Source of the DNA: Euryarchaeota archaeon UBA39
GTDB taxonomy: Archaea; Thermoplasmatota; Poseidoniia; Poseidoniales; Thalassarchaeaceae
Reading direction: 5' to 3'
Length of the DNA: 37,931 nucleotides
NCBI GenBank assembly: GCA_002503045.1
Contig: DAQW01000008.1
Coordinates: forward strand, 1-37,931
Position numbers and translations under genes: made by a program. Shown in pieces: positions 2 to 29,854 of this stretch; the first letter of the stretch is position 1; each line of letters starts with the position of its first letter. A model generated the notes under the pieces. The model ran no database searches, was not told the DNA's origin, and saw nothing but the letters and a program-made list of their open reading frames with translations.

Positions 2-466
2 TTGTTGGATTGTGTTGGTTCTCCTATTGAAGAATGGTGGCAATTCCGTGAACATCTTCTTGGATTATGCCTTCAGAATCCGACTGATTTGAACTATATG
101 AGGATGAATAAAGTCAACAATACTGACTTACTTTATGCTCATGTAGTCAATGATATGGATATTGATTATCTCCAACAAAGTCCAGAAGATGATATAGATG
201 TTGTTTGGGGTCAATGGACTGACCCTTGGAATCGAACATTTGGCGATGAGAATCATTTGCCTAATCTTGGTAATGGCGAATTTGTTTGGGGCTGGTATAA
301 TTTGGATATAGATGGGGATCAAATTGCCGATGGTACAGATCCGTTTAATTATGATACTGATGGTGATTGGTTGAATGATTATTTCGAAATTGAAGATGAT
401 TTACTTGATGGGATTAGGGGTAACGGTGGTTCTCCAATAAGATATGATGACCGATCTACATCATAA
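2..466 (+). CDS. 3' part of a gene cut by the window edge: C-terminus of a secreted Ca2+-binding repeat protein (thrombospondin type-3-like DxDxDG repeats)
   Basis: The frame is open from the window start to TAA at 464-466. The translation contains DIDGDQIADGTD and DTDGDWLNDYFE, both fitting DxDxDGxxDxx[DE] acidic Ca2+-binding loops. It is Trp/Asp-rich, typical of extracellular repeats. No C-terminal TM segment. Confidence 0.6.
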   Translation: MLDCVGSPIEEWWQFREHLLGLCLQNPTDLNYMRMNKVNNTDLLYAHVVNDMDIDYLQQSPEDDIDVVWGQWTDPWNRTFGDENHLPNLGNGEFVWGWYNLDIDGDQIADGTDPFNYDTDGDWLNDYFEIEDDLLDGIRGNGGSPIRYDDRSTS

Positions 467-516: not shown

Positions 517-3500
517 ATGAGCGGCAGCACTTCGGCGTCTATTGTTGGCCGATCGAGCCCCTTGTTGTTGGTTTCTATTTTTTTGTTGGCTTCGTTAGTC
601 CCACTTTTTTCATCAATCGATGAGGTAGAAGCTAATCAGAGTGGTCGCCATATCTATACATTTTCAGATGGCACTTCTAGCGCTATTGCTCTTGCATCTC
701 CAGGTTCTCCTGCTCGTAACATAATGGTTAGTTTACCCAAAGGTGCTGAAGTTTTGGATGCAGAATTAACGTTGTCTGGTGCGTCTTCAACTGGATGGAA
801 TCAGGTGACTACAATTAATCGAGCAGATTGGTTGTCAGGTGAATCCAATTCAGTTGAACCACGTTCTGATGACTTATCTTTAGGATTTGATAATCCTGAG
901 ATAGATTTCGTACCCTATGGTATCGATTCTACTTCTACTTCTGGAGATGCATGGTATGATGATGCTTCTTTTTCAATCCGTCAACCACATTCAACCAATG
1001 CTTCTGAATCTCGTTTTTCCCAACAAAGTTCAATGTCTACTACTTCTGTTGGAACTTATTCAGGTGCTGTTTTCAAACATCGTGATTGGTTAGTAGCATC
1101 CGATCTTCGTTCAACATCATTTGGGGGGATGCTCCGATTATTACATGCCAATAATGGGACTCAGGTCCAGGGTGCTGCTTTCAATAATGGAATGATTTCA
1201 ATAGACACTGATAGTTGTTCCATCCCTTCACTTCCATTCACTTGGTCAGGTTATGGAATTCGAGATTGGGCAATTACTGATGATGAAAGAGCATTCGGAC
1301 TTCTTACCACGTATTATTCCTCTACATCCTCTCAATATCATCGAATTATCGAATTTGATATTCGTTATATTACTGAGTGGAAATGCTTAGGGGTTCACGA
1401 CCCATCTTCAAATAACCATGGAGATTATTCAGGAATATCTTATGATAGAAGTAGGGATTTAATTTGGGTGAATCATAATTTGTTAAATCGAGTAGTAGCT
1501 TATCATCCTGAAGATGGTAGTTTTACTAGAAACTCCACACTGTATTACAGTTATTTCATGAGTAGTGGAACTCCAAGAGGAATGGTTGTCAATGGTTCAT
1601 ATGTATATTTTAGAACGTACTCTTCTTGGCAACAAGATCGATTAGATGCATATGCGATTACTGGAAATATTGGTTCTACTTTAACCCAACAACAAGGGGC
1701 TAGATCTATCCCTGCGAATGGTTATGGATTGGTATATGATGGTCAAAGATTACTCACTCAAGACTACTATTCTTGGTCTACAGCATATTATCGAGAATAT
1801 GGATCGGGTTGGGCTTACGAGATTTCTCCTGTACCAGGGACATCTACTTGGGTAAGTCATACTCATGAAACCGATGAAGAAATATTAGCAGCTAACATGG
1901 AAGTAGATTGGAGTGCAAGTGCAGCAGGTGATCGAGTAGATTATTGGATATCTGCAGATAATGGGACGCATTGGGAGCCAGTAACAAATAATGAAACAAT
2001 ACGATTCACCCACACTGGAACTCAACTTAGATGGAAACTGGAACTCATTGGGTCTACTGCAATTGCTTGGTGGTCATCAATTGAATATTCTACTGCATAC
2101 GCATCTATTGGAGATTGGACCAGTGATCTAGTTCAGACTGGAACTGAGATTGGAAGAGTTCGAGCTACGTGGATTGCAGATATCCCTACAGATACCTCAT
2201 TGGAAGTACATGTTTCTGCAGATAATGGAACAAATTGGCAAGAAATAGAGAATAATGTGGAAGTTCAGTTTGACAATACTTCATTTTCAGGTGCAGGTAA
2301 TCGATTGAAGTATAGATTATTGATGCAGACAAATGACTCCAGTGTTACCCCAGTAGTAGAGAATCTTGTTATCAATTATGAAGAAGGTTGGCCTGCAAGT
2401 GTCCGATTAGATATTGGAAACGATGGAACAATGGAATTTACCCATACAGGTGTTTTAACAGACCCACAAGTCGCAGATAATCAACAAATGATTGATGCAT
2501 TCAATGATCATACTATTCAGAATGGTGAAGGTAATACAGACATTATTTTAGCAATTCATGCAGGTTCTGCAGGTCGTATTTTATTGAGTAATTTGGATAT
2601 CACTTACAGATATGGATCTCGTGTAATTGAGGCTACAATGGAAGGTGGTACGATAGTTCCTGATGGTGAGCATCGTAATCTAATTGTTAGAGCAGCTGTT
2701 GGTGATGTTGCATCTTCATTGCTTCGACTTGATGTTGATATTATGTCTGGTCAAGGCTCGACTCCTCGTCTAACTTGGATTAGTGGCAATACCTGTTCCG
2801 TCTCAAATGATCCACTGGGATTGGTATCTTTTGATTATTCAAATTGTAGTTCTCAAGAAATAGGTGGAATTACTTCTATTCGGATGCCAATTATGCCAAA
2901 TTGGGCATGGGATGATGAAAACGATGTTGAGGTCAGAGTGGATTTAGAAGATGATCTTGGCCTTGCAGTAAATGATTATGAAACTGAAAGTTTGGATCTA
3001 AGAGTCGAGAATGACATCGTCCTTGGGGCTCTAGAAGTAACTGACGAGACAGGTAGAGTTTTACTCCCATCAGATTGGATGAGAGGTGGCCTAAATGCTA
3101 CATTTACAGGTACAATTTCCTTTGAAGATACTTCTCGATATCCTAGGCCTGGTAATTTTGGCCTTCAAGTAATTGGTAGGAATTTGACATTAGATGGACT
3201 TCCGATGGAAGAACCGACAATGTTTGTCAACCAATCTAATCCCTCATATGGCCTATATTCGATGACATTTCAAACTCCTTTCCAGTCCTCTCCCGGAGGA
3301 ATGCTTTTCGAAGTTGGAGTTTTCAATATGAAAAACGGTTCTAATTTTGTTAATCCCGGGCAGAATACAATCAAATTAGTTCTAGATGGTGTTAGTCCAT
3401 TGGTAATTGCTTCAACTCCAAGTGATGGGGACGAGATGCATGCTGGGAATCAACCGATTTCAATTACAATTCAAGATTCTGTAGATCCACCGGAAGAAAT

Positions 3501-6066
3501 TACAGTACATTATTGGATAGAAAATCAATCTGATTTGAATTACAATAAGGTACCCGATAGATCTGAATATTCGTCTATGTTATTCCGGTCCCCTGAAATT
3601 CAACCTGGTGGGATCAATGTTTTCAATGGGATATTAGATGATTCTTGGAACGTTCATAAAGAACGAGTATCTATTTATGTTACTGGAGAGGATACTAGTG
3701 GAAATACGATTGCTTTAGGCGGTGATGCAATTTGTCCCGAACCTCCATCTCCTTGCAACAAAGATATCCGAGGGATTTCTGATTGGAATGAAGATTTGGT
3801 TACGTATATCAATAGAGAAGAATTTGAACCCTCTCTAGTTTCTGAAAATAGTACGATAATAGGACATGATGATGAAACGCCGCTTCACCCTGGTATCCAA
3901 TATTTGGCTAGATTGAGAATTGAGGATGGTAATGGCTGGCAAGATATTCGTTCAATTCAAATGGCATTAGCAGGGGATTTATCTGACCCCGAACAATCAA
4001 TCTATGGCAATGTATCATTTTCTTCAGATGGTTCTCCATCAATACAATTCGAATCAGGTGGCGAAGGACTTGCTGTTTCCAATTTGTATAGCACATATGG
4101 GCCCAACCCTATGGCAACAGAAATTGATTCTTCAGAACTTTTCGTCGATATTCGTTTCCAACTTACCTGGTGGTTCCCTGAAGAGTTTGACACAGATGGG
4201 GAAACGACGTTTATCCCTGTCATTGAAGTCACAGATTGGCCATGTAACGTGGGTGAAACTATACCTTGTCACGATGATAGAGGAGGTTTAGGGTTTGACG
4301 AGTGGAGTTTAGACAACGATCTTCGTTTTGATCTTGGAGAGGGTCATCTTACTGCAACAGACTTGGCAACTGGACGTAATGTCTTTGATGGAGATGAATC
4401 TTCAGGTCCTAGTTTGATAGCAGCCGGACAAGTGGTAAGAATTGAAGGGAAACTGTTGTTCAGTGAGGATTTAGTTCCGGCTCCCGGTGGTGCTTGCGAT
4501 ATTGTTGTTTCAGATTTAGATAACGTATGGGTTGCAATTCCAAGAGAAGATGGTCATTTCACTCTAGATATTCTTGTACCTAATTTACAATCCGGATATC
4601 TCGATGCTTCTATGAGCTTAGATTCACTCCCGGGTCTTGCTCAAGATGAAACTGAAAGCACTCCTCGTTTACAACTATCAGTAGATGGGACTCCTCCTCA
4701 AATCAAGGAAATTGCCCCAACTGGAGATGTTCGTATAGATCGAGCATCACAAGTTCAGATTAATTTGTTAGCTTCAGATTCTAGTGGTTTTGATGAGGAT
4801 TTATCCAGCGTCCTTCATTATCGAATCAGAGCAGGTTCTAGTGAAATTTCTAGAGGCAGTGTGCCTTTGTCAGAATTAACCGAGATTCAAAGTGAAGCTA
4901 TGTGGAGTGGAAAGCTGGATCTTACAGATGGTGGTGCAACTGCATTGTTACCTGGTTATCTTGTCGATGTATGGATTACAGGTTCAGATCGAGCCGGCAA
5001 TCCCTATGATAACAATATGAATTCCGAAATTCAACCGTTTGATACTTGGCGATTGGTTAGAGTAGGTCCCGAGATAGATTTGCCTAGTTCTTCAATCAAA
5101 TGGTCCGACCCTTCTCCTACTGGGGGAGATATAGTCTCACTTATGATTGAAGGGAGTAATCCGTTGGAGTATGAGGGCGAGATAAAATTCGTTATTCAAA
5201 ATGAGGTATCTCCTGGTATTTGGTCTGATGTTGATGGTGCTGAAACAGATTTGAATATTCTACCTGATTCTACATATGATGCTGCAATTGATTTACTAAC
5301 ATTAGGTGTTGATTCTACAGAGGTTCAACGTTATCGATTAGTTGCTAGAGATGGCCATATTGACGTTGATATTCTCACATTAGAATCTCTAATTGTTCAA
5401 CCTTATCAGGCAAGAGATGGTGAGGCATTGGGTCAACAAATTGAGGAAGGCCAATTGACATTTTTACTATATCTTGCTGCTTTGTTCGGTTTAATATTTG
5501 GAACCATAATGTTAGTGTTGTATCGGCAAGAAAATACCTCAGAAGACGATGAAACAGTAACTGATGAGGAGCAAACAGATTTGGTTGTGGAATCAATGAA
5601 TTCTCAAAAGGCCAGAACAAATCCACCCCCTCCACCTATGCCCATTACTCCTCCAAAGTCTGCTGTCCCTCCTCCCGTGGCTAAATCACCTCCTCCAATG
5701 CCTGCTGGTTTACAGTCCTCAACTCCAACTGTCCAAACTGAATTGCCAACACAGAATCCTAAGCCATTACAATGGAGCGATGAACAATTAATTTCTCAAG
5801 GATGGACCGCAGAGCAGATTGCAGTGTGGAGAACACAACAAGCTCAGACGACATACCAACAAGCTACTCCTAGTCAGGATGTAACTGGAGGAGTTGCGGG
5901 GGCGTCCTATTCTGACAGAGTAGTCTCTCATTTGATGCAGAAGTATAGCCTGACTGATCGCGCCTCATTTTTGGCTGCGGCAGAGTTCTTTGATGCAGAT
6001 GGGAACCGATATCTGACTGCTGAGGAATTAGAAAAGACTGCACGCAGTCTTGGTGAAGGGGCCTGA
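517..6066 (+). CDS. Giant (1849 aa) secreted, C-terminally membrane-anchored surface protein with Asp-box jelly-roll modules, Ig/cadherin-like repeats, and a cytoplasmic proline-rich tail ending in an EF-hand
   Basis: ATG at 517. N-terminal signal-like segment LLLVSIFLLASLVPLF. Uninterrupted 5.5-kb ORF. Two SxDxGxxW Asp-box motifs. Repeated D-G-x-x-P modules (LDGVSPLVIASTP, VDGTPPQIKEIAP) typical of Ig-like surface repeats. A single hydrophobic helix LTFLLYLAALFGLIFGTIMLVLY at 5455-5523 is followed by a 180-aa tail. Confidence 0.85.
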   Translation: MSGSTSASIVGRSSPLLLVSIFLLASLVPLFSSIDEVEANQSGRHIYTFSDGTSSAIALASPGSPARNIMVSLPKGAEVLDAELTLSGASSTGWNQVTTINRADWLSGESNSVEPRSDDLSLGFDNPEIDFVPYGIDSTSTSGDAWYDDASFSIRQPHSTNASESRFSQQSSMSTTSVGTYSGAVFKHRDWLVASDLRSTSFGGMLRLLHANNGTQVQGAAFNNGMISIDTDSCSIPSLPFTWSGYGIRDWAITDDERAFGLLTTYYSSTSSQYHRIIEFDIRYITEWKCLGVHDPSSNNHGDYSGISYDRSRDLIWVNHNLLNRVVAYHPEDGSFTRNSTLYYSYFMSSGTPRGMVVNGSYVYFRTYSSWQQDRLDAYAITGNIGSTLTQQQGARSIPANGYGLVYDGQRLLTQDYYSWSTAYYREYGSGWAYEISPVPGTSTWVSHTHETDEEILAANMEVDWSASAAGDRVDYWISADNGTHWEPVTNNETIRFTHTGTQLRWKLELIGSTAIAWWSSIEYSTAYASIGDWTSDLVQTGTEIGRVRATWIADIPTDTSLEVHVSADNGTNWQEIENNVEVQFDNTSFSGAGNRLKYRLLMQTNDSSVTPVVENLVINYEEGWPASVRLDIGNDGTMEFTHTGVLTDPQVADNQQMIDAFNDHTIQNGEGNTDIILAIHAGSAGRILLSNLDITYRYGSRVIEATMEGGTIVPDGEHRNLIVRAAVGDVASSLLRLDVDIMSGQGSTPRLTWISGNTCSVSNDPLGLVSFDYSNCSSQEIGGITSIRMPIMPNWAWDDENDVEVRVDLEDDLGLAVNDYETESLDLRVENDIVLGALEVTDETGRVLLPSDWMRGGLNATFTGTISFEDTSRYPRPGNFGLQVIGRNLTLDGLPMEEPTMFVNQSNPSYGLYSMTFQTPFQSSPGGMLFEVGVFNMKNGSNFVNPGQNTIKLVLDGVSPLVIASTPSDGDEMHAGNQPISITIQDSVDPPEEITVHYWIENQSDLNYNKVPDRSEYSSMLFRSPEIQPGGINVFNGILDDSWNVHKERVSIYVTGEDTSGNTIALGGDAICPEPPSPCNKDIRGISDWNEDLVTYINREEFEPSLVSENSTIIGHDDETPLHPGIQYLARLRIEDGNGWQDIRSIQMALAGDLSDPEQSIYGNVSFSSDGSPSIQFESGGEGLAVSNLYSTYGPNPMATEIDSSELFVDIRFQLTWWFPEEFDTDGETTFIPVIEVTDWPCNVGETIPCHDDRGGLGFDEWSLDNDLRFDLGEGHLTATDLATGRNVFDGDESSGPSLIAAGQVVRIEGKLLFSEDLVPAPGGACDIVVSDLDNVWVAIPREDGHFTLDILVPNLQSGYLDASMSLDSLPGLAQDETESTPRLQLSVDGTPPQIKEIAPTGDVRIDRASQVQINLLASDSSGFDEDLSSVLHYRIRAGSSEISRGSVPLSELTEIQSEAMWSGKLDLTDGGATALLPGYLVDVWITGSDRAGNPYDNNMNSEIQPFDTWRLVRVGPEIDLPSSSIKWSDPSPTGGDIVSLMIEGSNPLEYEGEIKFVIQNEVSPGIWSDVDGAETDLNILPDSTYDAAIDLLTLGVDSTEVQRYRLVARDGHIDVDILTLESLIVQPYQARDGEALGQQIEEGQLTFLLYLAALFGLIFGTIMLVLYRQENTSEDDETVTDEEQTDLVVESMNSQKARTNPPPPPMPITPPKSAVPPPVAKSPPPMPAGLQSSTPTVQTELPTQNPKPLQWSDEQLISQGWTAEQIAVWRTQQAQTTYQQATPSQDVTGGVAGASYSDRVVSHLMQKYSLTDRASFLAAAEFFDADGNRYLTAEELEKTARSLGEGA
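1951..2238 (+). other. Two Asp-box (BNR-type SxDxGxxW) motifs in tandem homologous modules of the giant protein
   Basis: SADNGTHW at 1951-1974 and SADNGTNW at 2215-2238. The flanks are similar too (DYWISADNGTHWEPVTNNETIRF versus EVHVSADNGTNWQEIENNVEVQF), indicating an internal domain duplication. Confidence 0.7.
5623..5703 (+). other. Poly-proline tract in the predicted cytoplasmic tail of the giant protein
   Basis: Translation is PPPPPMPITPPKSAVPPPVAKSPPPMP. It lies about 33 aa after the only C-terminal TM helix. With an N-terminal signal peptide, the tail is predicted to be inside the cell. Confidence 0.7.
5992..6027 (+). other. Canonical 12-residue EF-hand Ca2+-binding loop at the extreme C-terminus of the giant protein
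   Basis: DADGNRYLTAEE fits the EF-loop pattern: D1, D3, N5, G at position 4 rather than 6 with R at 6 (a variant), hydrophobic L8, E12. It is flanked by helix-prone ASFLAAAEFF and LEKTARSL. Only one clear loop is visible. Confidence 0.6.
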
Positions 6067-6074
6067 GTTTTCTC

Positions 6075-6539
6075 ATGTCCGAAGCGATGCCTTCAGTTTC
6101 TTCATCAAGTACCGAGAAGATGTTGTTTCTACAGGAGAATATGGTTCATTTTGTTAATCAGATGTCGATGCCTGTTATTGAAGTAAGTTTGGTGATTTCT
6201 AAATATCTTAAGAGACTGGTTGATGTTCTTGAAGAACGTGCACAAAAAGAAGATGAGGAACTATCTAGTGAAATACTAAACCCTTGGCCTATAGAGTCGG
6301 ATTCTAGTGCTGGAGACCGACCTGGAATGGCTTTAGACAGAATCTTAGAGATAGTTGACATTGATCGCATGGATATTTTAGATACTATGATTCGAACAAT
6401 CATTAACGGAACTGAATTACCGTTTATTGACGCAGTTCTGGCATTAAGAAGATGGGAACATCTCGCTAGAAATCAACTATCGAGGGCATCTGGAACTGGC
6501 CAACTATTCTCCCCAATGATTTTACCCGCTGACTTCTGA
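6075..6539 (+). CDS. Hypothetical acidic, predicted cytosolic, helical protein (154 aa), 9 nt downstream of the giant gene
   Basis: ATG at 6075. No TM segment. Acidic helical composition (EERAQKEDEELSSE, LDRILEIVDIDRMDILDTMIRT). I recognise no family. The spacing suggests co-transcription with 517-6066. Confidence 0.55.
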   Translation: MSEAMPSVSSSSTEKMLFLQENMVHFVNQMSMPVIEVSLVISKYLKRLVDVLEERAQKEDEELSSEILNPWPIESDSSAGDRPGMALDRILEIVDIDRMDILDTMIRTIINGTELPFIDAVLALRRWEHLARNQLSRASGTGQLFSPMILPADF

Positions 6540-6893
6540 TACATTCAGGATTGACGAATCTTTCGCAACTCGATTATTTGCTACCCACCATGCGTCTACA
6601 ATGGAAAATAACCACAATAAAGGCCAAAGTACGATAGATAGTAACAGTGGGATTTGTAATAAGAACCAATCTCTTGCTTTACCATGTTCTCGATTGAAGT
6701 GCTGTCCTAAGAATAGGAATGGAATCAATGCCAATAATATAGCAAATAGTGGTCTCATTGCACCCCAAGGTCCAACTCCACCAGTGAATTCATACCAAAT
6801 TATTCGAGATACATTGATTGGAGATTTAGCTCGATTTTGGATTTTTTCAGCCAAGTCGAATTCGTCATTTTCGACCTCTACTGTCTCCACCAT
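6522..6893 (-). CDS. Small membrane protein, possibly TM2-domain-like (123 aa from the ATG at 6893)
   Basis: Two hydrophobic helices (LFAILLALIPFLFLG, LLLSIVLWPLLWLFSIV) plus LGQH....G and WLFSIVDAWW segments loosely resembling the TM2 domain pattern. The ORF-track start at 6971 is a TTG lying only 27 nt from the divergent gene; the first ATG is at 6893. The 3' end overlaps 6075-6539 by 18 nt (convergent). Confidence 0.5.
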   Translation of the reverse strand: MVETVEVENDEFDLAEKIQNRAKSPINVSRIIWYEFTGGVGPWGAMRPLFAILLALIPFLFLGQHFNREHGKARDWFLLQIPLLLSIVLWPLLWLFSIVDAWWVANNRVAKDSSILNVSEVSG

Positions 6894-6998
6894 GTGTTGT
6901 GGTGTACATTGCTGCTTCTCAAGTTCTCTGTTCTTCTGTGTAAGAAAGACAGTTTCTCGGAAGTTATTCAATTAGGCAATAACTGGGGAGTCATACCG

Positions 6999-8021
6999 AT
7001 GTACAAGATTTTGATTACTGGATTTGAACCGTTCGCTGGACTGGAGACCAATGTGAGCGAGATTGTAGCTAATTCCTTGGATTCAAAAACGTTCAATATT
7101 AATCTAGGTGAAATTGGAATTGGTATCAGGAAAATTCGTGACCGAAATCCGTTGTTATCTGTTCGTTCTGAGATTCTCACTGTAGATAGAAGTGGGAGTA
7201 ACTGCATTTCAAATGTTCTTCAATCAGATTCAATAAATGATATAGATGCAATAATACATCTCGGATTAGCAAGAGGGGCTTTGATTCCGAGAATAGAAAC
7301 TAAGGGCTTGAACATGAATCGATTCTCATCTCCAGATAATGAGGGTAGAATTGCCAATGGAGAAATTATTCCGGGAGCACCTTCAGAAATTCCTATTTCT
7401 GTATCGCTTGAATCACTTCAAAATGAGAATCTCAAATATCCATTTGAATTTAGTGAAGATGCAGGAGGTTTTGTATGTAATGAAACACTATTCAATACGC
7501 TTCATGCATTACAATCTTTAGATCGAAATTTACCCTGTATTTTTGTTCACTTACCTTCAGAAGAAACCATGTGTATTGACGAACAAATCGAATTTGTATC
7601 ATTAATCTCTGGAATAATTGTACAACCTAAGCATATCGATGTAGTGGCGGCGATTTTTGAGGACGAAGGAAATTGGTTTGCTAGTAGGAGAAAAGGGCCT
7701 TTACACACAGATAAATGGGAATTCCCTGGTGGAAAAATTGAGAATGGTGAAACTGAAGAGGCCTCATTGGTTAGAGAATGTAAAGAAGAATTAGATTGGG
7801 ACATAACACCTGAGGAGAAAATTTTGGTAATTGATCATAAGTATCCAGATTTCACAGTCACAATTCATTTTTGGAGATGTATTTCACTAAGTAATCATCC
7901 TCCTGCTAATCATAGTCACACCGAACATCGTTGGATTAAAACATCATTACTTGGGGATTTTGATTGGCTAGATGCAGATATCCCATTGATAGAATTCATT
8001 CAGTCAGGATTCAAAATTTAA
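6999..8021 (+). CDS. pcp: Fusion protein: pyroglutamyl (pyrrolidone-carboxylate) peptidase I (C15) domain plus Nudix (MutT-like) hydrolase domain
   Basis: MYKILITGFEPFAG is a typical Pcp N-terminus. GGFVCNETLF is the Pcp nucleophile motif (Cys codon 7476-7478). CIFVHLP is the His motif. The C-terminal 130 aa carry a full Nudix box. The ORF-track N-terminal extension (6837-6998) reads as nonsense and overlaps the opposite gene. Confidence 0.8.
   Translation: MYKILITGFEPFAGLETNVSEIVANSLDSKTFNINLGEIGIGIRKIRDRNPLLSVRSEILTVDRSGSNCISNVLQSDSINDIDAIIHLGLARGALIPRIETKGLNMNRFSSPDNEGRIANGEIIPGAPSEIPISVSLESLQNENLKYPFEFSEDAGGFVCNETLFNTLHALQSLDRNLPCIFVHLPSEETMCIDEQIEFVSLISGIIVQPKHIDVVAAIFEDEGNWFASRRKGPLHTDKWEFPGGKIENGETEEASLVRECKEELDWDITPEEKILVIDHKYPDFTVTIHFWRCISLSNHPPANHSHTEHRWIKTSLLGDFDWLDADIPLIEFIQSGFKI
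7731..7799 (+). other. Nudix box (GX5EX7REUXEEXGU)
   Basis: GKIENGETEEASLVRECKEELDW matches every fixed position (G1, E7, R15, E16, E19, E20) except G22, which is D. Confidence 0.85.
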
Positions 8022-8622: not shown

Positions 8623-9753
8623 ATGGATGAGGTCAAGATATTGACGGTCATTCCTGTTTTAGATGAGTCACGACATCTCGATAGGTGCCTTCTTTCCCTT
8701 CGTAATCAGACCTTTGATTCTAGGCGTCACAGAATTTTGGTTTTGGACGGTGGGTCAACTGATAATTCTAGAGAGATTGCTGAGAAACATTCTGTTGAAA
8801 GTAAAAATTCAGAAGGCCCCTTAATCGAGGTATTAGATAACCCTGGGAAATATGTATCTTCAGCACGAAATATTGGATTAGAGCGAGTTGAAGATGCCAC
8901 ACATATGTTAGAAATTATTGGCCATACATGGGTTCCAGATGATCACATCCAATTAAGGGTTGATGATTTGCTTGATGCAGAAGAATCAATTGGGAAATCT
9001 ATTGGTTCAATGGGGACTCAAATTATGCCCTCTGAGGAAAGAAATGGTATGCCTAAATCAATTGAAAATGCTCTCCATTCTCCTTTGGGTGGAAGTGGAC
9101 AATTCGCAAGTTTTGAAGGTCGTGGTGATGCAAGTTCACCAGCATTTTGCTTGCACCGTGTTGAAGCAGTAAAGTCAATTGGAGGTTGGGATAATCGATG
9201 GGTTGCAGGACAAGATCATGATTTGAATCATCGGCTTAGGGAAAATGGTTGGCCAGTAATGCGTTCTGATGTTTCATTTGTATGTATGTCAAAAAGGTCC
9301 AATTTATCGGGCTTATGGGGGATGGGGCGAAGATATGGATATTGGAGAATGAGGCAATTGAAAGTTTATCCAAATCGTGCTAGATTACGAGAATTTCTTC
9401 CTTGGATTGGTATTATTACTGTTTTACTCTCGTTAGCATCAAATTTCATTATCTCCCAAAATCCTGAGATGTTCGATAATTACAATTTTTTCACAGGTAA
9501 TTCTGATATTTTCTTCTATTTCTCAGTATTACTAGTTCAATGTTATATTGGAATTTTACTTTATATTTCGATTTTTAGACCATACAAAATGCAATCACAA
9601 AAGCGGCGACCCGATTTTGGAATGTTTGTATCTTTGGTAGTGTTACATATTTCATTTAGTCTTGGACTACTTACTGGTTTGTTACATCTAAAACCGCCTA
9701 ATAATGAACGAGTCAAGGGCGCGAATAATTCAAACAATAAAGGTAGGAATTAA
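8623..9753 (+). CDS. Family 2 glycosyltransferase with C-terminal membrane domain
   Basis: The N-terminus reads ILTVIPVLDESRHLDRCLLSLRNQTF ... ILVLDGGSTDNS, the GT-A/GT2 nucleotide-binding signature. Later comes a DxD-like QDHD, then 3-4 hydrophobic helices in the last roughly 120 aa. Confidence 0.8.
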   Translation: MDEVKILTVIPVLDESRHLDRCLLSLRNQTFDSRRHRILVLDGGSTDNSREIAEKHSVESKNSEGPLIEVLDNPGKYVSSARNIGLERVEDATHMLEIIGHTWVPDDHIQLRVDDLLDAEESIGKSIGSMGTQIMPSEERNGMPKSIENALHSPLGGSGQFASFEGRGDASSPAFCLHRVEAVKSIGGWDNRWVAGQDHDLNHRLRENGWPVMRSDVSFVCMSKRSNLSGLWGMGRRYGYWRMRQLKVYPNRARLREFLPWIGIITVLLSLASNFIISQNPEMFDNYNFFTGNSDIFFYFSVLLVQCYIGILLYISIFRPYKMQSQKRRPDFGMFVSLVVLHISFSLGLLTGLLHLKPPNNERVKGANNSNNKGRN

Positions 9754-9757
9754 ATTC

Positions 9758-10624
9758 ATGGCGGATAAGAATTCGGGCACTTCAGTGGCCTTATTCTTGG
9801 CCCCAGGATTGATTTTTCTTGTGTTAGATCTCTTCGGTCCACCTGCCATTGATCTTTTGTTAGACGAAAAGATTTGGATCCCCTATGTTTACTATGGTAC
9901 TTCTCTTGTTTTTGGCTATATTTTGTTCCGTCGTTCAAGAGTTGTAAAAGATATGGAATGGCATCGATCAAAGAGTATTCAGCGTTTAGAAAAGGTATAC
10001 AAGGCCGAAGATAAAGGAGTTTGGTTGCGCTCTGAAGAAGCAGATAATCGTTTGAGTGCTGCAGCGATAAATCGACCACTCACTTCACAAAAAAAGGCTG
10101 TCGAACGTCTTTCAGGTTCAGTGTCACAAATTAATCATGAAGGTGGCCCCACAGAAATTGAATCGAATGAATCTGATGTTGAGAATGTAGATTTATTTCT
10201 TGAACAGGATCATGTTGCAAGGAGTACAGCTAGGGTGACTGGAAAAACAGGCCCTGTGGAATCAGTTCAAGGAGTCACTTTGGAAGAGTCACCTAAAGAA
10301 GAATCTGGATTATTCAGGGGTGCTCTACGCCGATTATCAGAAGCTAGAGAATCGGCAGCACAAAATCAAGTTAATCCAGTAAATACCTCCGTCTCAAGTA
10401 AGTCAAGAGACCTCATAAATAATCAAGAAAGTCCAATTGATCGAATTTATGTTCGGCCTGGAGAAGATTATGATCCATCACCAGAATCGTCCCGTTCTAT
10501 CCCTGCTCCTTCTGTTCAAAAAAACGAGTCACAGGAGTCCAATATGAGGCGTTGCAATGAATGCGGAGCTCACATGAATTTGAATGAATCATATTGTCCA
10601 AAGTGTGGTTCATTTTCTGCCTAG
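9758..10624 (+). CDS. Membrane protein with N-terminal TM hairpin, long disordered linker and C-terminal zinc ribbon
   Basis: ATG at 9758, 4 nt after the GT2 stop. TM segments are VALFLAPGLIFLVLDLF and IPYVYYGTSLVFGYILF. The middle is Ser/Glu-rich low complexity. CNECGAHMNLNESYCPKCG (10553-10606) is a CxxC-N10-CxxC zinc ribbon. Confidence 0.65.
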   Translation: MADKNSGTSVALFLAPGLIFLVLDLFGPPAIDLLLDEKIWIPYVYYGTSLVFGYILFRRSRVVKDMEWHRSKSIQRLEKVYKAEDKGVWLRSEEADNRLSAAAINRPLTSQKKAVERLSGSVSQINHEGGPTEIESNESDVENVDLFLEQDHVARSTARVTGKTGPVESVQGVTLEESPKEESGLFRGALRRLSEARESAAQNQVNPVNTSVSSKSRDLINNQESPIDRIYVRPGEDYDPSPESSRSIPAPSVQKNESQESNMRRCNECGAHMNLNESYCPKCGSFSA

Positions 10625-11841: not shown

Positions 11842-13281
11842 CTACAAATCAAGTATTATTGGTACGGCAGAATCCTCAGTAGTGTAATCTCCAACTTGAC
11901 CATTAATATTCCTACCCCAACATGCTATACTTTTATCCTCAAACATAATGCAAGTATGGAAATTTCCTAGGAACAGATTTTCCGGTTTGGACATTCCTTC
12001 AAATCCTGTAACTGAAAGAGGAGATGCTTCATAACTCGAAGGAGGGGAACCCAATTGTCCATATGTGTTATTGCCCCAGCAAACAACATCCCAATCCTCT
12101 AGAATTGCACAAGAATGGTGTGTCCCTGCAGAAACTTGGAGGGCTTTTCTATCATTACCAAAATCAATTGTATCTCTTGGCGTAAATTGATCTGTGGGCG
12201 CCTGTGTGTATCCTAATCCACGTTGGCCGTAGTCATTTCTACCCCAGCACATTACTGAACCATTATCAAGTAATGAGCAAGAATGGAATCCCCCCACAGA
12301 AACATCTCTAACGAGGGTTTCGTGGGGGATATGTGCAGGGTTTTTGATGTGTTGATTAGAGTTTGTAATTCCTTTGAGTGCTTTGTATCCCCAACAATAT
12401 AGTTGTCCATCTGTGGTTACTACACATGTTGCATGCCCTCCTGATCGAACTAATGATGCATTACTTCCTTGACCAAATTCCTGAATCTCATAAGGAGTCG
12501 AAATTCCATTTGGAGAAGTTTCCCCATTTCCGATTTGACCATAGGTATTGTTCCCCCAGCATGCAACAGATTGGTCAGATAGTAATGCGCAAGTGTGGTA
12601 ATATCCAGCAGATAATTGCAGTGCTGTGACTCCATTAGAAAAACTAGTAATGGGTACTGGGGTGTAACGATTATCATAGGTCCCATCCCCTAAAGTTCCA
12701 TCTTCATTGAAACCCCAGCATGCAACACTACCATCTTCTAGAATCGCACAATTGTGGAAACCCCCAGCAGATAGGTTAGTTACTAAGTGTCCTCCATACA
12801 TTGGAACTTCAATTGGATTATGTGATCCCGATGAATTTCGGTATCCTACACCGAGTTGTCCATAGTAATTATTACCCCAGCACATTACTGTACCATCCTC
12901 TCTAAGCATACAAGTATGCCAACCACCTCCTGTTAGTTGATCAACTGGCGATGTTTCATTTTCACAGTTTGTGGGATTACAACAATCTTCTGGGTTACAA
13001 GCCCCGTCATTTCCTGGTGCTCCATTACAAACATAAGATGTGAATTCAATTTCATTATCATTTAATTTCCCATTATTGTTTAGATCGATACCTGAATCTA
13101 TCTTAACGCCACCATGCGTACAATTCGATCCCGCCTCTTCATCGATCATTCTAATCAATGAATTAGATCCACTTACTATACTTTCACCACTATCACTTTT
13201 CGTCGAATCATCAGTAGGTGAGATGCAACCTGCCATTGGACCGACCAAAAGTATCAGCGTAGCGAAAATCACTCTAAGCAT
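11842..13281 (-). CDS. Secreted RCC1-repeat (seven-bladed beta-propeller) lipoprotein with N-terminal Cys-rich Ca2+-binding module
   Basis: Seven CWG-x-N-x-x-GQxG repeats (VMCWGNNYYGQLG, VACWGFNEDGTLG, VACWGNNTYGQIG, LYCWGYKALKG, VMCWGRNDYGQRG, VVCWGNNTYGQLG, IACWGRNINGQVG). Signal peptide MLRVIFATLILLVGPMAGC with a lipobox-like AGC. EF-like loop DLNNNGKLNDNE at 13051-13086. The ORF-track start at 13305 is GTG; ATG 13281 gives a textbook signal peptide. Confidence 0.85.
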   Translation of the reverse strand: MLRVIFATLILLVGPMAGCISPTDDSTKSDSGESIVSGSNSLIRMIDEEAGSNCTHGGVKIDSGIDLNNNGKLNDNEIEFTSYVCNGAPGNDGACNPEDCCNPTNCENETSPVDQLTGGGWHTCMLREDGTVMCWGNNYYGQLGVGYRNSSGSHNPIEVPMYGGHLVTNLSAGGFHNCAILEDGSVACWGFNEDGTLGDGTYDNRYTPVPITSFSNGVTALQLSAGYYHTCALLSDQSVACWGNNTYGQIGNGETSPNGISTPYEIQEFGQGSNASLVRSGGHATCVVTTDGQLYCWGYKALKGITNSNQHIKNPAHIPHETLVRDVSVGGFHSCSLLDNGSVMCWGRNDYGQRGLGYTQAPTDQFTPRDTIDFGNDRKALQVSAGTHHSCAILEDWDVVCWGNNTYGQLGSPPSSYEASPLSVTGFEGMSKPENLFLGNFHTCIMFEDKSIACWGRNINGQVGDYTTEDSAVPIILDL

Positions 13282-13305
13282 AAAAGTAATAATGAAATCA
13301 TACAC

Positions 13306-18622: not shown

Positions 18623-18630
18623 TTATTCAA
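18615..18630. repeat. Perfect 16-bp palindrome TTGAATAATTATTCAA centred exactly on the junction of two convergent stop codons
   Basis: The plus gene ends TTT GAA TAA (stop 18620-18622). The minus gene ends ATT GAA TAA (stop 18623-18625). The symmetry centre lies between 18622 and 18623. Confidence 0.6.
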
Positions 18631-20644
18631 TCAGGAGTATTCTTCCACAGCCTCCACAAGGTAGTCGAAGTGGACGTTCATTAGATGGAATAGGATTAGT
18701 TTGTTTGCAAATCGGGCAATCAATAACTGGAATTTTTTTATTCGGAATATCTCCTACCCCCTCAATTCTGTGACGGGGTGAGATGAAGATGATGATTAGT
18801 GAAAGAACGAAAGTACCAATGCCTGCGCCTAATACTAACCCCATTCTAATTCCCATAGTGTATAGGGTCACAAGAACAGCTATTGAAAGAATCAACCAAA
18901 ATATTGAGGGGGATCTTGATTTGTTTCTAGTTCCTTTAATTGATACAGTTCCACTAATAATTAGGATGATTAACACTAGGAACAATCCCGTCAATGGTCC
19001 ATCAATAAACGAGGTTGCAGGAGTAATTGTGACTCTAAAATCATCAATTCTTTCTTCCGAAGTAAATGAAACTCGGACATTTTCTGTAATTCCTATACGA
19101 AGATGGGTTGAATCAATCTCTTCAGAGTATACATTTGAAATTCCTTGTAAGGGATTTGTAGAAAGTGTAGCATCTAAACTTACCTTCGTCCAATATGTTT
19201 GAGATTGAGAACGAACGAATGATTCAATGAAAACGAAAGAACCAGAATCAAGAACAGTACTAGATCGAATAGTGATTGTAATTGGTTCAGGTCCGAATGA
19301 ATTTTGTCCATTCATATCAATTTCAATATCTAAGGCTCCTTCTAGGTCAAATGGATCACCTCCTAGAATTGACTTGGATTCTAATGCTAGCCCCCTATCG
19401 ATGAAATCGGCTAAATCTCGAGAACTCCCAGTTAGGTAATTCTCAAGAATATCAAGTTCTGAATCGTCTACAACGCGATTATTCAAACTATCAGCGCCAA
19501 CAATAGATCCCGAATCTCCTAGTTCTCTCCACCATGATGTTGAGTCAAGACTGTCGTTACCAATGTTATCCAATCCCCATCGAATCCATGTAGATACAGC
19601 GCCCTCAATCTCTAACTTGCTCGTTCTTTCAAGTCGATCATCAACTTGATTCACGACGATATCTAGGTGTAAATCGGTGCCTCCTGTTCTTACGGGCTCG
19701 TTAGAAGGATACCAACCATCACCATCACTTGAGCTACCATCTAATGTCAATTCATGACTGAGTTCAGCCTGAATTATTACTCCTTCTTGAGGTTTTAGTG
19801 TAATGTTGAATGTGTAACTTCCTGATTCTGCATTATCTGGATGTGTCCAGATGTATACTACTTCTACTCCTGTTGACGTAGTGCTAACATATGGATTTCC
19901 TGGAATTTCATTGCCTAGGACTTTAGCAGTCAAAGTTTCTGCAATAGCGAGTTCATCTCCGAATTCAGAATGAAATCTCACAGGAAAGTATACTTGATTT
20001 CCATCTACATTTGGCTCCATCATTTCTATATCAAGTAGAGGTGAGTTCAGAACTAATCCACTATTTGAGTCTGTATCACCCCACATTATCATAGCCTTGG
20101 AGTCATCATCTGGATTAGTCCAAATTACTCCTCCGTTGTTAAACAAAGAAACTGTAATTTTCTCACCTCGAGATACCGATATTTCATCCACTTCTACTTC
20201 GATGCAGAATGTTCCCTCTCTACCTGGCTGGAATGGGATCCCAGCGTGTCCTCCTTGTGATGCCGTGAATGTCTCGCCCCCAACTTCGACTTCTGTAGAA
20301 AAATTAGCTGCACCGGTAGAACCGCCTTCTGCTCGGTAATCAGTGCAAACTTCCCACGTACCTGAAGGAATGATTCCATTAATTCCAATCACGGATTCAA
20401 ATTGGGCCATTCGTTGTTTTTCAACGCCTTGGTATGTAATCTCCAATTCATAATTTTGATTTTTTGAAGATTCAGAAGGTGACATTGAACCGGTTTTTGT
20501 ATTATCTGACTCTCCTATGAAGAACATTACATGTTCTAGAGGCCCTTGATGTACCGTGGCCTGTTCTGCTGAAATATTTTGAACCGGAAACATCGAAATC
20601 AGGAAAATGAATAGAATAGTGAGAACCAGACTTCCCCGTTTCAT
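18623..20644 (-). CDS. Surface protein (673 aa) with signal peptide, large ectodomain, three C-terminal TM helices and a cytoplasmic zinc ribbon
   Basis: Signal peptide MKRGSLVLTILFIFLISMFPVQNISA. The TMs are at aa 551-569, 581-599 and 603-621. CPICKQTNPIPSNERPLRLPCGGC (18647-18718) is a CxxC-N17-CxxC ribbon. The odd TM count puts the ribbon inside the cell. Confidence 0.75.
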   Translation of the reverse strand: MKRGSLVLTILFIFLISMFPVQNISAEQATVHQGPLEHVMFFIGESDNTKTGSMSPSESSKNQNYELEITYQGVEKQRMAQFESVIGINGIIPSGTWEVCTDYRAEGGSTGAANFSTEVEVGGETFTASQGGHAGIPFQPGREGTFCIEVEVDEISVSRGEKITVSLFNNGGVIWTNPDDDSKAMIMWGDTDSNSGLVLNSPLLDIEMMEPNVDGNQVYFPVRFHSEFGDELAIAETLTAKVLGNEIPGNPYVSTTSTGVEVVYIWTHPDNAESGSYTFNITLKPQEGVIIQAELSHELTLDGSSSDGDGWYPSNEPVRTGGTDLHLDIVVNQVDDRLERTSKLEIEGAVSTWIRWGLDNIGNDSLDSTSWWRELGDSGSIVGADSLNNRVVDDSELDILENYLTGSSRDLADFIDRGLALESKSILGGDPFDLEGALDIEIDMNGQNSFGPEPITITIRSSTVLDSGSFVFIESFVRSQSQTYWTKVSLDATLSTNPLQGISNVYSEEIDSTHLRIGITENVRVSFTSEERIDDFRVTITPATSFIDGPLTGLFLVLIILIISGTVSIKGTRNKSRSPSIFWLILSIAVLVTLYTMGIRMGLVLGAGIGTFVLSLIIIFISPRHRIEGVGDIPNKKIPVIDCPICKQTNPIPSNERPLRLPCGGCGRILLIE

Positions 20645-29828: not shown

Positions 29829-29854
29829 ATAATATTGCACATTTCCATGCAACC

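What the first reader, a model, noticed from the sequence alone, without database searches (positions are those of the whole stretch)
517..6066. 1849-aa surface giant whose cytoplasmic tail combines poly-proline tracts and a terminal EF-hand
Directly seen:
- signal peptide
- about 1640-aa ectodomain (duplicated Asp-box modules, Ig-like repeats)
- one TM helix (5455-5523)
- a 180-aa tail containing PPPPPMPITPPKSAVPPPVAKSPPPMP
- a Trp-flanked duplicated helix motif WSDEQLISQGWTAEQIAVW
- at the very end, helix, DADGNRYLTAEE, helix: an EF-hand

The topology (signal peptide plus a single TM) puts the EF-hand and the proline tract inside the cell. An intracellular Ca2+-binding module and proline ligands on an adhesin-like giant would be a eukaryote-style outside-in coupling design (integrin or cadherin logic). 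I know of no characterised archaeal example. The functional reading is inference.
Basis: partly seen in the sequence, partly recalled or inferred. Interest (0 to 1): 0.7.

Follow-up and report, generated by a model that had tools for sequence, protein, structure and literature searches.

The report
Archaeal surface giant with cytoplasmic EF-hand tail
A 1849-residue surface protein found in nearly every marine Group II archaeon ends in an intracellular tail with a proline-rich spacer, a conserved tryptophan hairpin and, in one family, a probable calcium-binding EF-hand module that is reused on many other proteins; that it signals like integrins or cadherins is not shown.

Summary
ORF 517..6066 encodes 1849 aa with an N-terminal signal-like segment, one C-terminal TM helix (nt 5455-5523) and a 180-aa tail carrying every stated motif.

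The protein is not a one-off. More than 120 full-length orthologues (1750-1880 aa) exist across Poseidoniales (MGIIa and MGIIb), in conserved synteny behind a ~1900-aa secreted giant with thrombospondin-type-3-like repeats.

Tail anatomy:
- 119 of 120 orthologue tails carry a Pro-rich spacer plus a GW[ST]xxQ hairpin.
- The EF-hand part is an accessory ~55-aa module in about a third of orthologues, all MGIIb. In one subclade its order relative to the hairpin is swapped.
- Its loop (D1, D3, N5, Y7, L8, E12) is conserved. The module profile matches calmodulin and calbindin Ca2+ loops, and AlphaFold gives a confident helix-loop-helix.
- It misses every Pfam EF-hand threshold, and Foldseek finds no EF-lobe match.

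The same module occurs in about 140 other representative proteins:
- tails of surface proteins with unrelated ectodomains, beside SAP and zinc-ribbon motifs;
- proteins with no signal sequence (TPR, ketoreductase, APP1 phosphatase, zinc ribbon plus canonical EF-hands).

These contexts and the positive-inside charge bias place the tail in the cytoplasm. Ca2+ binding is likely but untested. "Integrin-like outside-in coupling" remains speculation.

Verdict: a new variant of known kinds, moderately interesting.

The parts
2..466 (+). C-terminal end of the upstream ~1900-aa secreted giant with thrombospondin-type-3-like DxDGD repeats and no C-terminal TM helix. It is always directly upstream of the studied gene.
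   Evidence: The full-length MGIIa counterpart gives weak NCBIfam hits to MtsD and CglD.
517..633 (+). Signal-peptide-like N-terminus, residues 1-39: R12, a hydrophobic core at 13-35, and V-E-A before a putative cleavage site.
   Evidence: Hydropathy scan. 109 of 121 family members have exactly this N-terminal segment plus one C-terminal TM helix. The cleavage site is inferred by eye.
634..5454 (+). Ectodomain of about 1607 aa. It has no curated family match, two Asp-box motifs (nt 1951-1974 and 2215-2238), 17 N-x-S/T sequons and 9 Cys.
   Evidence: The membrane-proximal half is 22-26% identical to paralogous MGII giants P0204 and P0149.
5455..5523 (+). Single transmembrane helix, residues 1647-1669, followed by R1670.
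   Evidence: positive-inside bias across orthologues.
5524..5772 (+). Acidic juxtamembrane stretch and proline-rich spacer, with the proline tracts at nt 5623-5703. Sequence and length vary, but the proline richness is conserved.
   Evidence: Pro is 15.5% of tails against 4.8% of ectodomains, and PPP occurs in 106 of 120 tails.
5773..5859 (+). Trp hairpin WSDEQLISQ-GWT-AEQIAVWRTQQAQ..., residues 1753-1781. It is the only tail element present in essentially all orthologues.
   Evidence: GW[ST]xxQ occurs in 119 of 120 tails. The AF2 helices at 1755-1760 and 1765-1781 have pLDDT about 90. The alignment is A2.
5896..6054 (+). EF-hand-derived module of about 53 aa, residues 1794-1846: beta-strand and helix A (YSDRVVSHLMQKY), a turn, helix B (ASFLAAAEFF), the 12-residue loop, and helix C.
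5992..6027 (+). Putative Ca2+-binding loop DADGNRYLTAEE, with ligand positions D1, D3, N5, Y7 (backbone), T9 and E12.
   Evidence: Loop positions 1, 8, 12 and 13 are invariant and positions 3, 4, 5 and 7 are at least 90% conserved in 24 tails. In 178 twelve-residue loops of the module family, D1 is 97%, D3 89%, N5 92% and E12 97%. The loop aligns on calmodulin EF3 and calbindin loops.
6075..6539 (+). Small 154-aa acidic helical protein starting 8 nt after the giant's stop. It is probably co-transcribed and is a possible cytoplasmic partner (inference).
   Evidence: It is 42% identical to the gene in the same position in MGIIa and holds the same position in L003 and L004. There are 69 homologues with no Pfam match. 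AF2 pLDDT is 87.7, with no PDB fold match. It is absent in the L001 lineage.

Best explanation
The gene encodes a core type I membrane protein of the Poseidoniales (Marine Group II) cell envelope.

Architecture (shown, or following directly from sequence):
- A signal peptide exports a ~1600-aa, probably glycosylated, ectodomain.
- That ectodomain most likely works together with the secreted thrombospondin-repeat giant encoded directly upstream.
- One TM helix anchors the protein, and the last 180 residues stay in the cytoplasm.
- The tail is modular. First comes an acidic, proline-rich spacer, probably extended.
- Next comes a universally conserved GW[ST]xEQ tryptophan helical hairpin.
- In this lineage (MGIIb) the tail ends with a ~55-aa EF-hand-derived module. 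Its single canonical 12-residue loop most likely binds Ca2+.

The module belongs to an uncurated domain family. That family is spread through marine Thermoplasmatota proteins that have no signal sequence, and through the tails of surface proteins with unrelated ectodomains.

Inferred mechanism:
- The hairpin is the constant docking or self-association handle of the tail.
- The EF module is an add-on switch. Its Ca2+-dependent conformation modulates what the tail binds or how neighbouring tails associate.
- In this way the state of the envelope protein is coupled to cytoplasmic Ca2+, or the reverse.
- The direction of coupling and the partner are unknown.
For: Architecture, topology and conservation:
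- The ORF, TM helix and motifs are as described.
- More than 120 full-length orthologues of constant length occur in both MGII families, with conserved synteny: upstream giant, this gene, then the small gene, C15-NUDIX, GT2 and DnaJ.
- Positive-inside bias is 2.8 against 0.5 K+R. Sequon density is 1.06 per 100 aa in ectodomains against 0.33 in tails.

Tail elements:
- The hairpin is present in 119 of 120 tails, and proline is enriched threefold.
- The EF loop is invariant or nearly so at its ligand positions across 24 tails at 32-80% identity to the window tail.
- The linker between hairpin and module varies from about 10 to 80 aa, and the module order is permuted in 16 orthologues. This marks the two as independent modules.

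EF-hand identity:
- The tail profile hits calbindin (E = 1e-7) and calmodulin (about 5e-4) with loop aligned on loop.
- hhalign of the module profile against calmodulin EF3 gives 92.5% probability and E = 4.8e-7.
- AF2 gives pLDDT 88.8 and pTM 0.80. The entering helix ends at loop position 0, a beta-bridge sits at position 7, and the exiting helix starts at position 10.

Distribution of the module:
- 207 library hits have E below 1e-3.
- Of 142 non-orthologue representatives, 112 have no TM helix, 15 carry the module after the last TM helix, and 9 carry it before the first TM helix with no signal sequence.
- Partner domains are TPR, KR/PKS, APP1 phosphatase, double zinc ribbon plus canonical EF-hands, and SAP.
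- The ectodomains of P0252, P0267 and P0275 are unrelated to this one.
Against: - The module fails all Pfam EF-hand gathering thresholds.
- Foldseek of the AF2 model finds no EF-hand lobe; the best E-value is 1.9.
- Only 2 of the 5 AF2 models are confident.
- Loop position 6 is R here, and Gly in only 65 of 178 family loops. Position 9 is K or R in 104 of 178 loops. About 14% of family members have an 11-residue loop and about 13% have degenerate loops. Ca2+ binding therefore cannot be universal in the family.
- All MGIIa and some MGIIb orthologues lack the module, so it is dispensable for the core function.
- At least one module-bearing bacterial-type protein (P0139) starts with a lipoprotein-like signal by eye, so the module is not strictly cytoplasmic.
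- No partner, Ca2+ affinity or expression data exist. The organisms are uncultured.
Confidence: 0.5

Rival explanations
1. The EF-like module is a metal-independent helix-loop-helix. It is a degenerate EF-hand that acts only as a protein-protein interaction or dimerisation module. The tail is a static anchor to a cytoplasmic scaffold or to neighbouring tails.
For: - The Pfam scores are sub-threshold.
- There is no structural match to EF lobes.
- Family members exist with 11-residue or degenerate loops, with non-Gly at position 6 and K/R at position 9.
- The tandem arrays in APP1-like proteins look like scaffolding repeats.
Against: - The four side-chain ligand positions (1, 3, 5, 12) are 89-97% conserved over the 178 twelve-residue loops and invariant or nearly so in the orthologues. 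That is hard to explain without a metal.
- The profile aligns exactly on functional Ca2+ loops.
- The module co-occurs with canonical EF-hand pairs in P0158 and P0164.
Confidence: 0.22
2. The tail is a eukaryote-style outside-in signalling device. Ligand binding by the ectodomain is transmitted through the membrane. It is read out by Ca2+/EF-hand and by proline-tract binding proteins such as SH3-, WW- or profilin-like readers.
For: - The tail is long, cytoplasmic, modular and conserved.
- Tail modules are shuffled among different surface proteins together with SAP and zinc-ribbon motifs, which resembles adaptor logic.
- A conserved small cytoplasmic protein is encoded 8 nt downstream.
Against: - A single-pass helix with no known oligomerisation switch offers no evident transmission mechanism.
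- No proline-binding domain, kinase or other transducer was found in the window or in the conserved neighbourhood.
- The small downstream protein has no recognisable fold and is missing in some lineages.
- The proline tracts vary in sequence like spacers.
- The EF module is absent from two thirds of the orthologues.
Confidence: 0.12
3. The tail serves biogenesis rather than function. It would be a sorting, insertion or quality-control handle for exporting and positioning very large envelope proteins, for example a recognition site for a chaperone or targeting factor. The EF module would be incidental.
For: - The GW hairpin is conserved in essentially every orthologue regardless of the EF module.
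- Other large type I proteins in the same window also have Pro-rich cytoplasmic tails, for example 29825..34627.
- DnaJ lies in the conserved neighbourhood.
Against: - The GW motif was not found in the other type I proteins of the window, so it is not a general sorting tag.
- Known archaeal TM-anchored S-layer proteins manage with short basic tails (bioRxiv 10.64898/2026.08.21.746120).
Confidence: 0.12
4. The C-terminal region is extracellular and the Ca2+ loop is a structural extracellular site, as in dockerins or thrombospondin repeats.
For: - Seawater Ca2+ is abundant.
- The upstream partner giant is full of extracellular-type DxDGD Ca2+ motifs.
- One module-bearing protein (P0139) seems to have a lipoprotein signal.
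Against: - A signal peptide plus a single TM helix forces the C-terminus inside.
- There is a positive-inside bias and sequons are depleted in tails.
- Most module-bearing proteins lack any signal sequence and pair the module with zinc ribbons, TPR or SAP.
Confidence: 0.03

Closest known systems
Canonical EF-hand Ca2+-binding motif (calmodulin, calbindin; Pfam EF-hand clan, PROSITE PS00018)
   Same: - A 12-residue loop with D1, D3, N5, a backbone ligand at position 7, a hydrophobic residue at 8 and a bidentate E12, flanked by helices.
- The profile aligns loop on loop with calmodulin EF3 and calbindin EF1.
- AF2 secondary structure matches: a beta-bridge at position 7 and the exiting helix starting at position 10.
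   Different: - There is one Ca2+ loop per module, paired at most with a ligand-free pseudo-loop.
- It scores below every Pfam EF-hand threshold and finds no Foldseek match to EF lobes.
- Position 6 is usually not Gly and position 9 is often K or R.
- A characteristic N-terminal [YFW]x[FYW][SN][DE]xV strand-helix, not part of EF-hand models, is conserved.
Polycystin-2 (PKD2) C-terminal cytoplasmic tail, where a single functional EF-hand packs against a non-binding helix-loop-helix (from my own knowledge: Petri et al., PNAS 2010)
   Same: A membrane protein whose cytoplasmic C-terminal tail carries one functional-looking EF-hand packed against a degenerate helix-loop-helix, proposed to act as a Ca2+ sensor for the membrane protein.
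   Different: There is no sequence homology beyond the EF loop. PKD2 is a multi-pass channel, not a single-pass surface giant. The resemblance is recalled, not tested here.
TM-anchored archaeal S-layer proteins (for example the Pyrobaculum 'colossal' SLP and Haloferax SLG)
   Same: A very large, probably glycosylated, lineage-wide conserved envelope protein with a signal peptide and one C-terminal TM anchor.
   Different: - Known examples have short, basic cytoplasmic tails (bioRxiv 10.64898/2026.08.21.746120). Here the tail is 73-222 aa, acidic and carries folded modules.
- There is no sequence similarity to any solved S-layer protein.
- Lattice formation was not tested.
Integrin and cadherin cytoplasmic tails
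   Same: A type I surface protein with a conserved cytoplasmic tail that probably serves as a docking site.
   Different: There is no homology, no NPxY or catenin-binding motifs, no identified adaptor and no evidence of signal transmission. The resemblance is architectural only.

Membership tests
EF-hand (PROSITE PS00018 / Pfam EF-hand_1, _6, _7) | A 12-residue loop with oxygen ligands at positions 1, 3, 5 and 12, a hydrophobic residue at 8, and a fit to the PS00018 pattern | tested here: met
   DADGNRYLTAEE followed by L fits the pattern by inspection. The regex matched orthologue loops that differ from the window's only at non-ligand positions 10 and 11. Ligand positions are conserved.
EF-hand (PROSITE PS00018 / Pfam EF-hand_1, _6, _7) | A score at or above the curated Pfam gathering threshold | tested here: not met
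   On the tail alone, EF-hand_6 scores 16.9 bits against 25, EF-hand_1 12.9 against 25.4, and EF-hand_7 12.2 against 30.
EF-hand (PROSITE PS00018 / Pfam EF-hand_1, _6, _7) | Helix-loop-helix geometry with an entering and an exiting helix | tested here: met
   AF2 places helices at model residues 71-81 and 91-102 around the loop at 82-93, with a beta-bridge at residue 88. Local pLDDT is 89-95. I could not inspect the coordinates.
EF-hand (PROSITE PS00018 / Pfam EF-hand_1, _6, _7) | Pairing of two EF-hands into a four-helix lobe | tested here: inconclusive
   AF2 shows a beta-bridge between residue 53 (a ligand-free pseudo-loop) and residue 88, which resembles a pair. Foldseek finds no EF lobe, with best E = 1.9, and only 2 of 5 models are confident.
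EF-hand (PROSITE PS00018 / Pfam EF-hand_1, _6, _7) | Profile-level sequence homology to proven Ca2+-binding EF-hands | tested here: met
   hmmsearch of the tail profile against the PDB gives calbindin at 1e-7 and calmodulin at about 5e-4. hhalign against calmodulin gives 92.5% probability and E = 4.8e-7.
EF-hand (PROSITE PS00018 / Pfam EF-hand_1, _6, _7) | Measured Ca2+ binding | not testable with these tools
   This needs ITC, 45Ca overlay or NMR on the expressed tail.
Type I (signal peptide plus single C-terminal TM) archaeal envelope protein | An N-terminal signal sequence, one TM helix near the C-terminus and a cytoplasmic C-terminus | tested here: met
   Hydropathy finds exactly two hydrophobic segments. 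Positive-inside bias is 2.8 against 0.5 K+R. Sequon distribution agrees. Dedicated predictors (SignalP, DeepTMHMM) were not available.
Archaeal S-layer protein | Forms the paracrystalline surface lattice; short basic tail in the TM-anchored examples | tested here: not met
   The tail is long and acidic, with net charge -11. There is no similarity to solved S-layer proteins. Lattice formation itself cannot be tested here.
Integrin- or cadherin-type outside-in receptors | Homologous ectodomain or tail motifs and identified cytoplasmic adaptors | tested here: not met
   There are no Pfam, NCBIfam or PDB hits to such domains, and no adaptor-like gene in the conserved neighbourhood.

The most novel reading that the evidence does not exclude
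Marine Group II archaea have a combinatorial cytoplasmic-tail toolkit that they attach to many otherwise unrelated type I surface giants. The toolkit comprises a Pro-rich spacer, a GW hairpin, a single-EF-hand module, a SAP motif and a zinc ribbon. It physically and Ca2+-dependently couples the cell envelope to intracellular structures such as a scaffold, the nucleoid or a small helical partner like the product of window 6075-6539. This would be a prokaryotic, independently evolved counterpart of eukaryotic adhesion-receptor tails, and the first case of Ca2+-regulated transmembrane coupling in archaea.
Probability: 0.15. Interest if true: 0.85.

Novelty: new variant of a known kind. Interest (0 to 1): 0.55.

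Why it matters
Poseidoniales are the most abundant planktonic archaea in surface oceans. They are uncultured, and their cell envelope is unknown.

This work defines three things:
- a universally conserved pair of envelope giants;
- a cytoplasmic tail architecture unlike the short basic tails of known TM-anchored archaeal S-layer proteins;
- an uncurated EF-hand-derived domain family, with about 200 representative clusters, that current domain databases miss.

If the module binds Ca2+, it would give a concrete and easily expressed 55-residue handle on Ca2+ sensing in archaea, for which experimental evidence is scarce. It would also suggest that envelope proteins are regulated from inside the cell.

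Tried and rejected
- Pfam and NCBIfam scans of the whole protein gave nothing above threshold.
- phmmer of the whole protein against the PDB found only weak calmodulin hits to the tail.
- Foldseek of the tail model and of the small downstream protein against the PDB gave no significant match. No fold-based function could be assigned, and the 'paired EF lobe' could not be confirmed structurally.
- Self-BLAST for internal ectodomain repeats found none at E below 0.01.
- A six-frame search for the GW motif elsewhere in the window gave only chance-like hits, so it is not a general tag of this genome's surface proteins.
- tRNA and Rfam scans of the window were empty.
- Literature searches found no description of this protein or its tail. 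They found only general remarks on Poseidoniales-specific families with calcium-binding domains (PMC9258230) and on thrombospondin genes (PMC6461757).
- I considered the W motif as SHOCT-, UBA- or SAM-like. Only a sub-threshold SAM_SMF hit on a related protein supports this, so I did not pursue it.
- I considered the small downstream protein as a proline-binding fold such as profilin or SH3. I rejected this because the model is all-helical.
'Ig-like repeats' therefore remains unchecked.
Full report
**1. Observation**

ORF 517..6066 (+) is intact and encodes 1849 aa.
- A hydropathy scan finds only two hydrophobic segments. Residues 13-35 follow R12 and end in V-E-A, which looks like a signal peptide. 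Residues 1647-1669 (nt 5455-5523) are followed by R1670.
- The 180-aa tail contains the proline tracts (nt 5623-5703), WSDEQLISQGWTAEQIAVW (nt 5773-5829) and DADGNRYLTAEE (nt 5992-6027), exactly as reported.
- Two Asp-box motifs lie at residues 479 and 567.
- Pfam gives nothing above threshold. BNR and EF-hand_6 are sub-threshold: EF-hand_6 scores 16.9 bits on the tail against a cut-off of 25.
- The 'Ig-like repeats' could not be verified.

**2. A conserved core protein of Marine Group II archaea**

A whole-protein search returned more than 120 full-length relatives of 1750-1880 aa.
- Thalassarchaeaceae (MGIIb) relatives are 46-90% identical.
- Poseidoniaceae (MGIIa) relatives are about 42% identical.
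- The window itself is MGIIb. Its small neighbouring protein is 86% identical to one from a Thalassarchaeaceae MAG.

Synteny is conserved across both families. The order is:
- a divergent metallo-beta-lactamase gene;
- a ~1900-aa secreted giant rich in thrombospondin-type-3-like DxDGD repeats and lacking a C-terminal TM helix (window 2..466 is its C-terminal end);
- the studied giant;
- usually a ~155-aa protein a few nucleotides downstream;
- a C15-peptidase-NUDIX fusion, a GT2 glycosyltransferase and DnaJ.

Constant length, single-copy-like distribution and fixed context point to a structural envelope component rather than a variable adhesin.

The ectodomain has no solved or curated relatives. 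Its membrane-proximal half is 22-26% identical to that of other MGII giants, P0204 and P0149.

**3. Topology**

- 109 of 121 family members have exactly one N-terminal and one C-terminal hydrophobic segment.
- The 15 residues after the TM helix average 2.8 K+R, against 0.5 before it. MGIIa tails begin RRxL or RRIR.
- N-x-S/T sequons are 1.28-fold over expectation in ectodomains (1.06 per 100 aa) and under expectation in tails (0.33 per 100 aa).
- The contexts of the tail module described in section 5 agree. The tail is cytoplasmic with high probability.
- Dedicated predictors were not available.

**4. Tail anatomy across orthologues**

Tails are 73-222 aa long, with a median of 108. Proline makes up 15.5% of tails against 4.8% of ectodomains.

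Universal element. GW[ST]xxQ occurs in 119 of 120 tails, and the one exception is a truncated record.
- In MGIIa the tail simply ends ...PPTGLPEGWTQEQWNSYGWQYIDALSKK.
- AF2 models the window's version as a short helix, a GWT turn and a long helix, with pLDDT about 90.

Accessory element. The EF-hand part is found in 40 of 121 members.
- 24 members, including the window, have the order hairpin then EF.
- 16 members have the order EF then hairpin, with the hairpin at the extreme C-terminus.
- 81 members have no EF module: all MGIIa and a few MGIIb.
- The linker between hairpin and EF module varies from about 10 to 80 aa.

Hairpin and EF module are therefore separable modules.

**5. The EF-hand module**

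Conservation in 24 tails at 32-80% identity to the window tail:
- Loop positions 1 (D), 8 (L), 12 (E) and 13 (L) are invariant.
- Positions 3 (D), 4 (G), 5 (N) and 7 (Y) are at least 90% conserved.
- An upstream [YF]-[SN]-[DE]-x-V-V...V-M...T-D...F element is also conserved.

Similarity to proven EF-hands:
- The tail profile hits calbindin (1e-7) and calmodulins (about 5e-4) in the PDB, with loop on loop.
- A profile of 200 module instances aligns to calmodulin EF3 with 92.5% probability and E = 4.8e-7.

Structure prediction:
- AF2 on residues 1745-1849 gives pLDDT 88.8 and pTM 0.80. The entering helix covers model residues 71-81, the loop 82-90 with a beta-bridge at loop position 7, and the exiting helix starts at position 10.
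- A second beta-bridge partner at model residue 53 sits in a ligand-free pseudo-loop before helix 56-65. This is the pattern of a pseudo-EF/EF pair.

Caveats:
- Only two of the five AF2 models are confident.
- Foldseek finds no EF lobe or anything else; the best E-value is 1.9.
- The Pfam thresholds are missed.

**6. The module is a widespread, uncurated domain**

An exhaustive profile search of 1.84 billion representatives found 207 proteins at E below 1e-3 and 63 at E below 1e-10.

Contexts beyond the orthologues:
- Tails of MGII giants P0149 (2336 aa; two modules, a W motif and a SAP motif) and P0204.
- Tails of surface proteins whose ectodomains share no similarity with this one (P0252, P0267, P0275), often followed by a SAP motif and a zinc ribbon.
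- Proteins without signal sequences: TPR proteins, a KR/PKS-dehydratase protein annotated as Euryarchaeota, proteins with polyproline N-termini and DUF11, and double-zinc-ribbon proteins carrying canonical above-threshold EF-hand pairs.
- APP1-type phosphatases with 2-3 tandem modules.

Counts for 142 non-orthologue representatives:

| Context | Proteins |
|---|---|
| No TM helix | 112 |
| Module after the last TM helix | 15 |
| Module before the first TM helix, no signal sequence | 9 |
| N-terminal hydrophobic segment only | 5 |
| Other | 1 |

Loop statistics across 242 instances:
- 178 have 12-residue loops, with D1 97%, D3 89%, N5 92%, Y7 91%, L8 97% and E12 97%.
- 33 have an 11-residue loop (HDDGNRYL) and 31 are degenerate.
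- Position 6 is Gly in only 65 of 178 loops. Position 9 is K or R in 104 of 178. The window has R6 and T9.

The window's module has the full ligand set. The family as a whole probably includes non-binding members.

**7. The neighbours**

- The downstream 154-aa protein (6075..6539) is conserved between MGIIb and MGIIa at 42% identity.
- It keeps its position in other loci and has 69 homologues without a Pfam match.
- It is confidently all-helical (pLDDT 87.7) with no PDB fold match.
- It is missing in one MGIIb lineage.
- It is a candidate partner only by position.

**8. Interpretation**

Shown:
- The architecture, its conservation, the modularity of the tail and the EF-hand-type sequence signature.
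- The predicted helix-loop-helix.
- The predominance of contexts that lack any signal sequence.

Inferred:
- Ca2+ binding.
- The hairpin as the constant docking or self-association handle.
- The EF module as an optional Ca2+-dependent modulator.

Not supported by any test:
- Outside-in signalling of the integrin or cadherin kind.
- Proline tracts as ligands for specific readers. Their sequences vary like spacers.

Comparison with known systems:
- TM-anchored archaeal S-layer proteins have short basic tails, so this long acidic modular tail is unusual.
- The closest functional analogue I know of is the polycystin-2 tail, with one real EF-hand beside a degenerate helix-loop-helix. That comparison is from memory and was not tested.

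**9. Literature**

No paper in the searchable library describes this protein or its tail.
- Méheust et al. note Poseidoniales-specific families with calcium-binding domains (PMC9258230).
- Rinke et al. note thrombospondin genes in the order (PMC6461757).

**10. Verdict**

- Novelty: a new variant of known kinds, namely a divergent single-EF-hand domain family and an atypical tail on a type I envelope giant.
- Interest: 0.55.

Noticed in passing
window 2..466 (+); full-length counterpart L002:2175-7937: This is the C-terminal end of a ~1900-aa secreted giant packed with thrombospondin-type-3-like DxDGDGxPDGWE repeats and lacking a TM anchor. It always lies directly upstream of the studied gene in both MGII families, so it may be an extracellular partner, loosely like the SlaA/SlaB division of labour.
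   Followed up: partly
window 6075..6539 (+): A 154-aa protein starts 8 nt after the giant's stop and is conserved across MGIIa and MGIIb. AF2 gives a confident all-helical model with no PDB fold match and there is no Pfam family. It is absent in one MGIIb lineage (L001). Its 3' end overlaps the convergent membrane-protein ORF 6522..6971 (-) by 18 nt.
   Followed up: yes
window 29825..34627 (+): This is a second type I giant (1600 aa, signal segment plus TM helix at residues 1475-1507). Its 93-aa tail ends in LAPLPPPTPEGLPPGFSRPPPPSLPPGLPPGLPPSE. PPG[LF]-type proline tracts seem to be a recurrent tail feature in this genome.
   Followed up: no
P0149, P0141, P0137, P0252, P0267 (representative-library hits, not in the window): Cytoplasmic tails of other MGII surface proteins combine the EF module with a SAP motif (LKRLKKAELVDLA..GTKADIIARL). 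P0252 also ends in a zinc ribbon. SAP is a nucleic-acid-binding motif, so its presence on a membrane-protein tail hints at envelope-nucleoid tethering.
   Followed up: partly
P0134, P0138, P0139, P0140 (representative-library hits): APP1-type phosphatidate-phosphatase domains are preceded by 2-3 tandem copies of the same module (YRWSDNVV...FDADGNKYLKRSELEAAAK). Some copies have an 11-residue loop. P0139 appears to have a lipoprotein signal. This would link the module to lipid-phosphate metabolism.
   Followed up: partly
P0166, P0180, P0211 (representative-library hits): These proteins have no TM helix and start with long formin-FH1-like N-terminal polyproline arrays (PPAPPGLPPMPGS repeated). 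They continue with a central region that hits DUF11 in P0180 (the only one scanned) and the EF module. P0180 and P0211 also end in a C-terminal zinc ribbon.
   Followed up: no
window 18623..20644 (-) and 9704..10624 (+): Two membrane proteins end in C-terminal zinc-ribbon motifs (CPICKQ...CGGCG and CNECG...CPKCG). This is another recurring cytoplasmic-tail element in this genome.
   Followed up: no
window 6987..8021 (+): A fusion of pyroglutamyl peptidase (Peptidase_C15) with a NUDIX hydrolase domain, conserved in the same position in all related loci examined.
   Followed up: no
window 11842..13305 (-): An RCC1-repeat beta-propeller protein with an N-terminal hydrophobic segment ending in a Cys (lipobox-like MAGC) and a DUF7151 domain. 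It is probably another surface protein.
   Followed up: no
P0218 and P0233 (representative-library hits): The helix-G[WY]T-helix unit of the tail hairpin occurs as tandem repeats elsewhere. There are four copies of LLANGWTQAQIDA in an 1837-aa Ala-rich repetitive protein that looks like a phage tape-measure protein by eye (not tested). There are five copies of LVNRGYTPEQIAAY in a 467-aa protein. It may be a generic small interaction unit.
   Followed up: no
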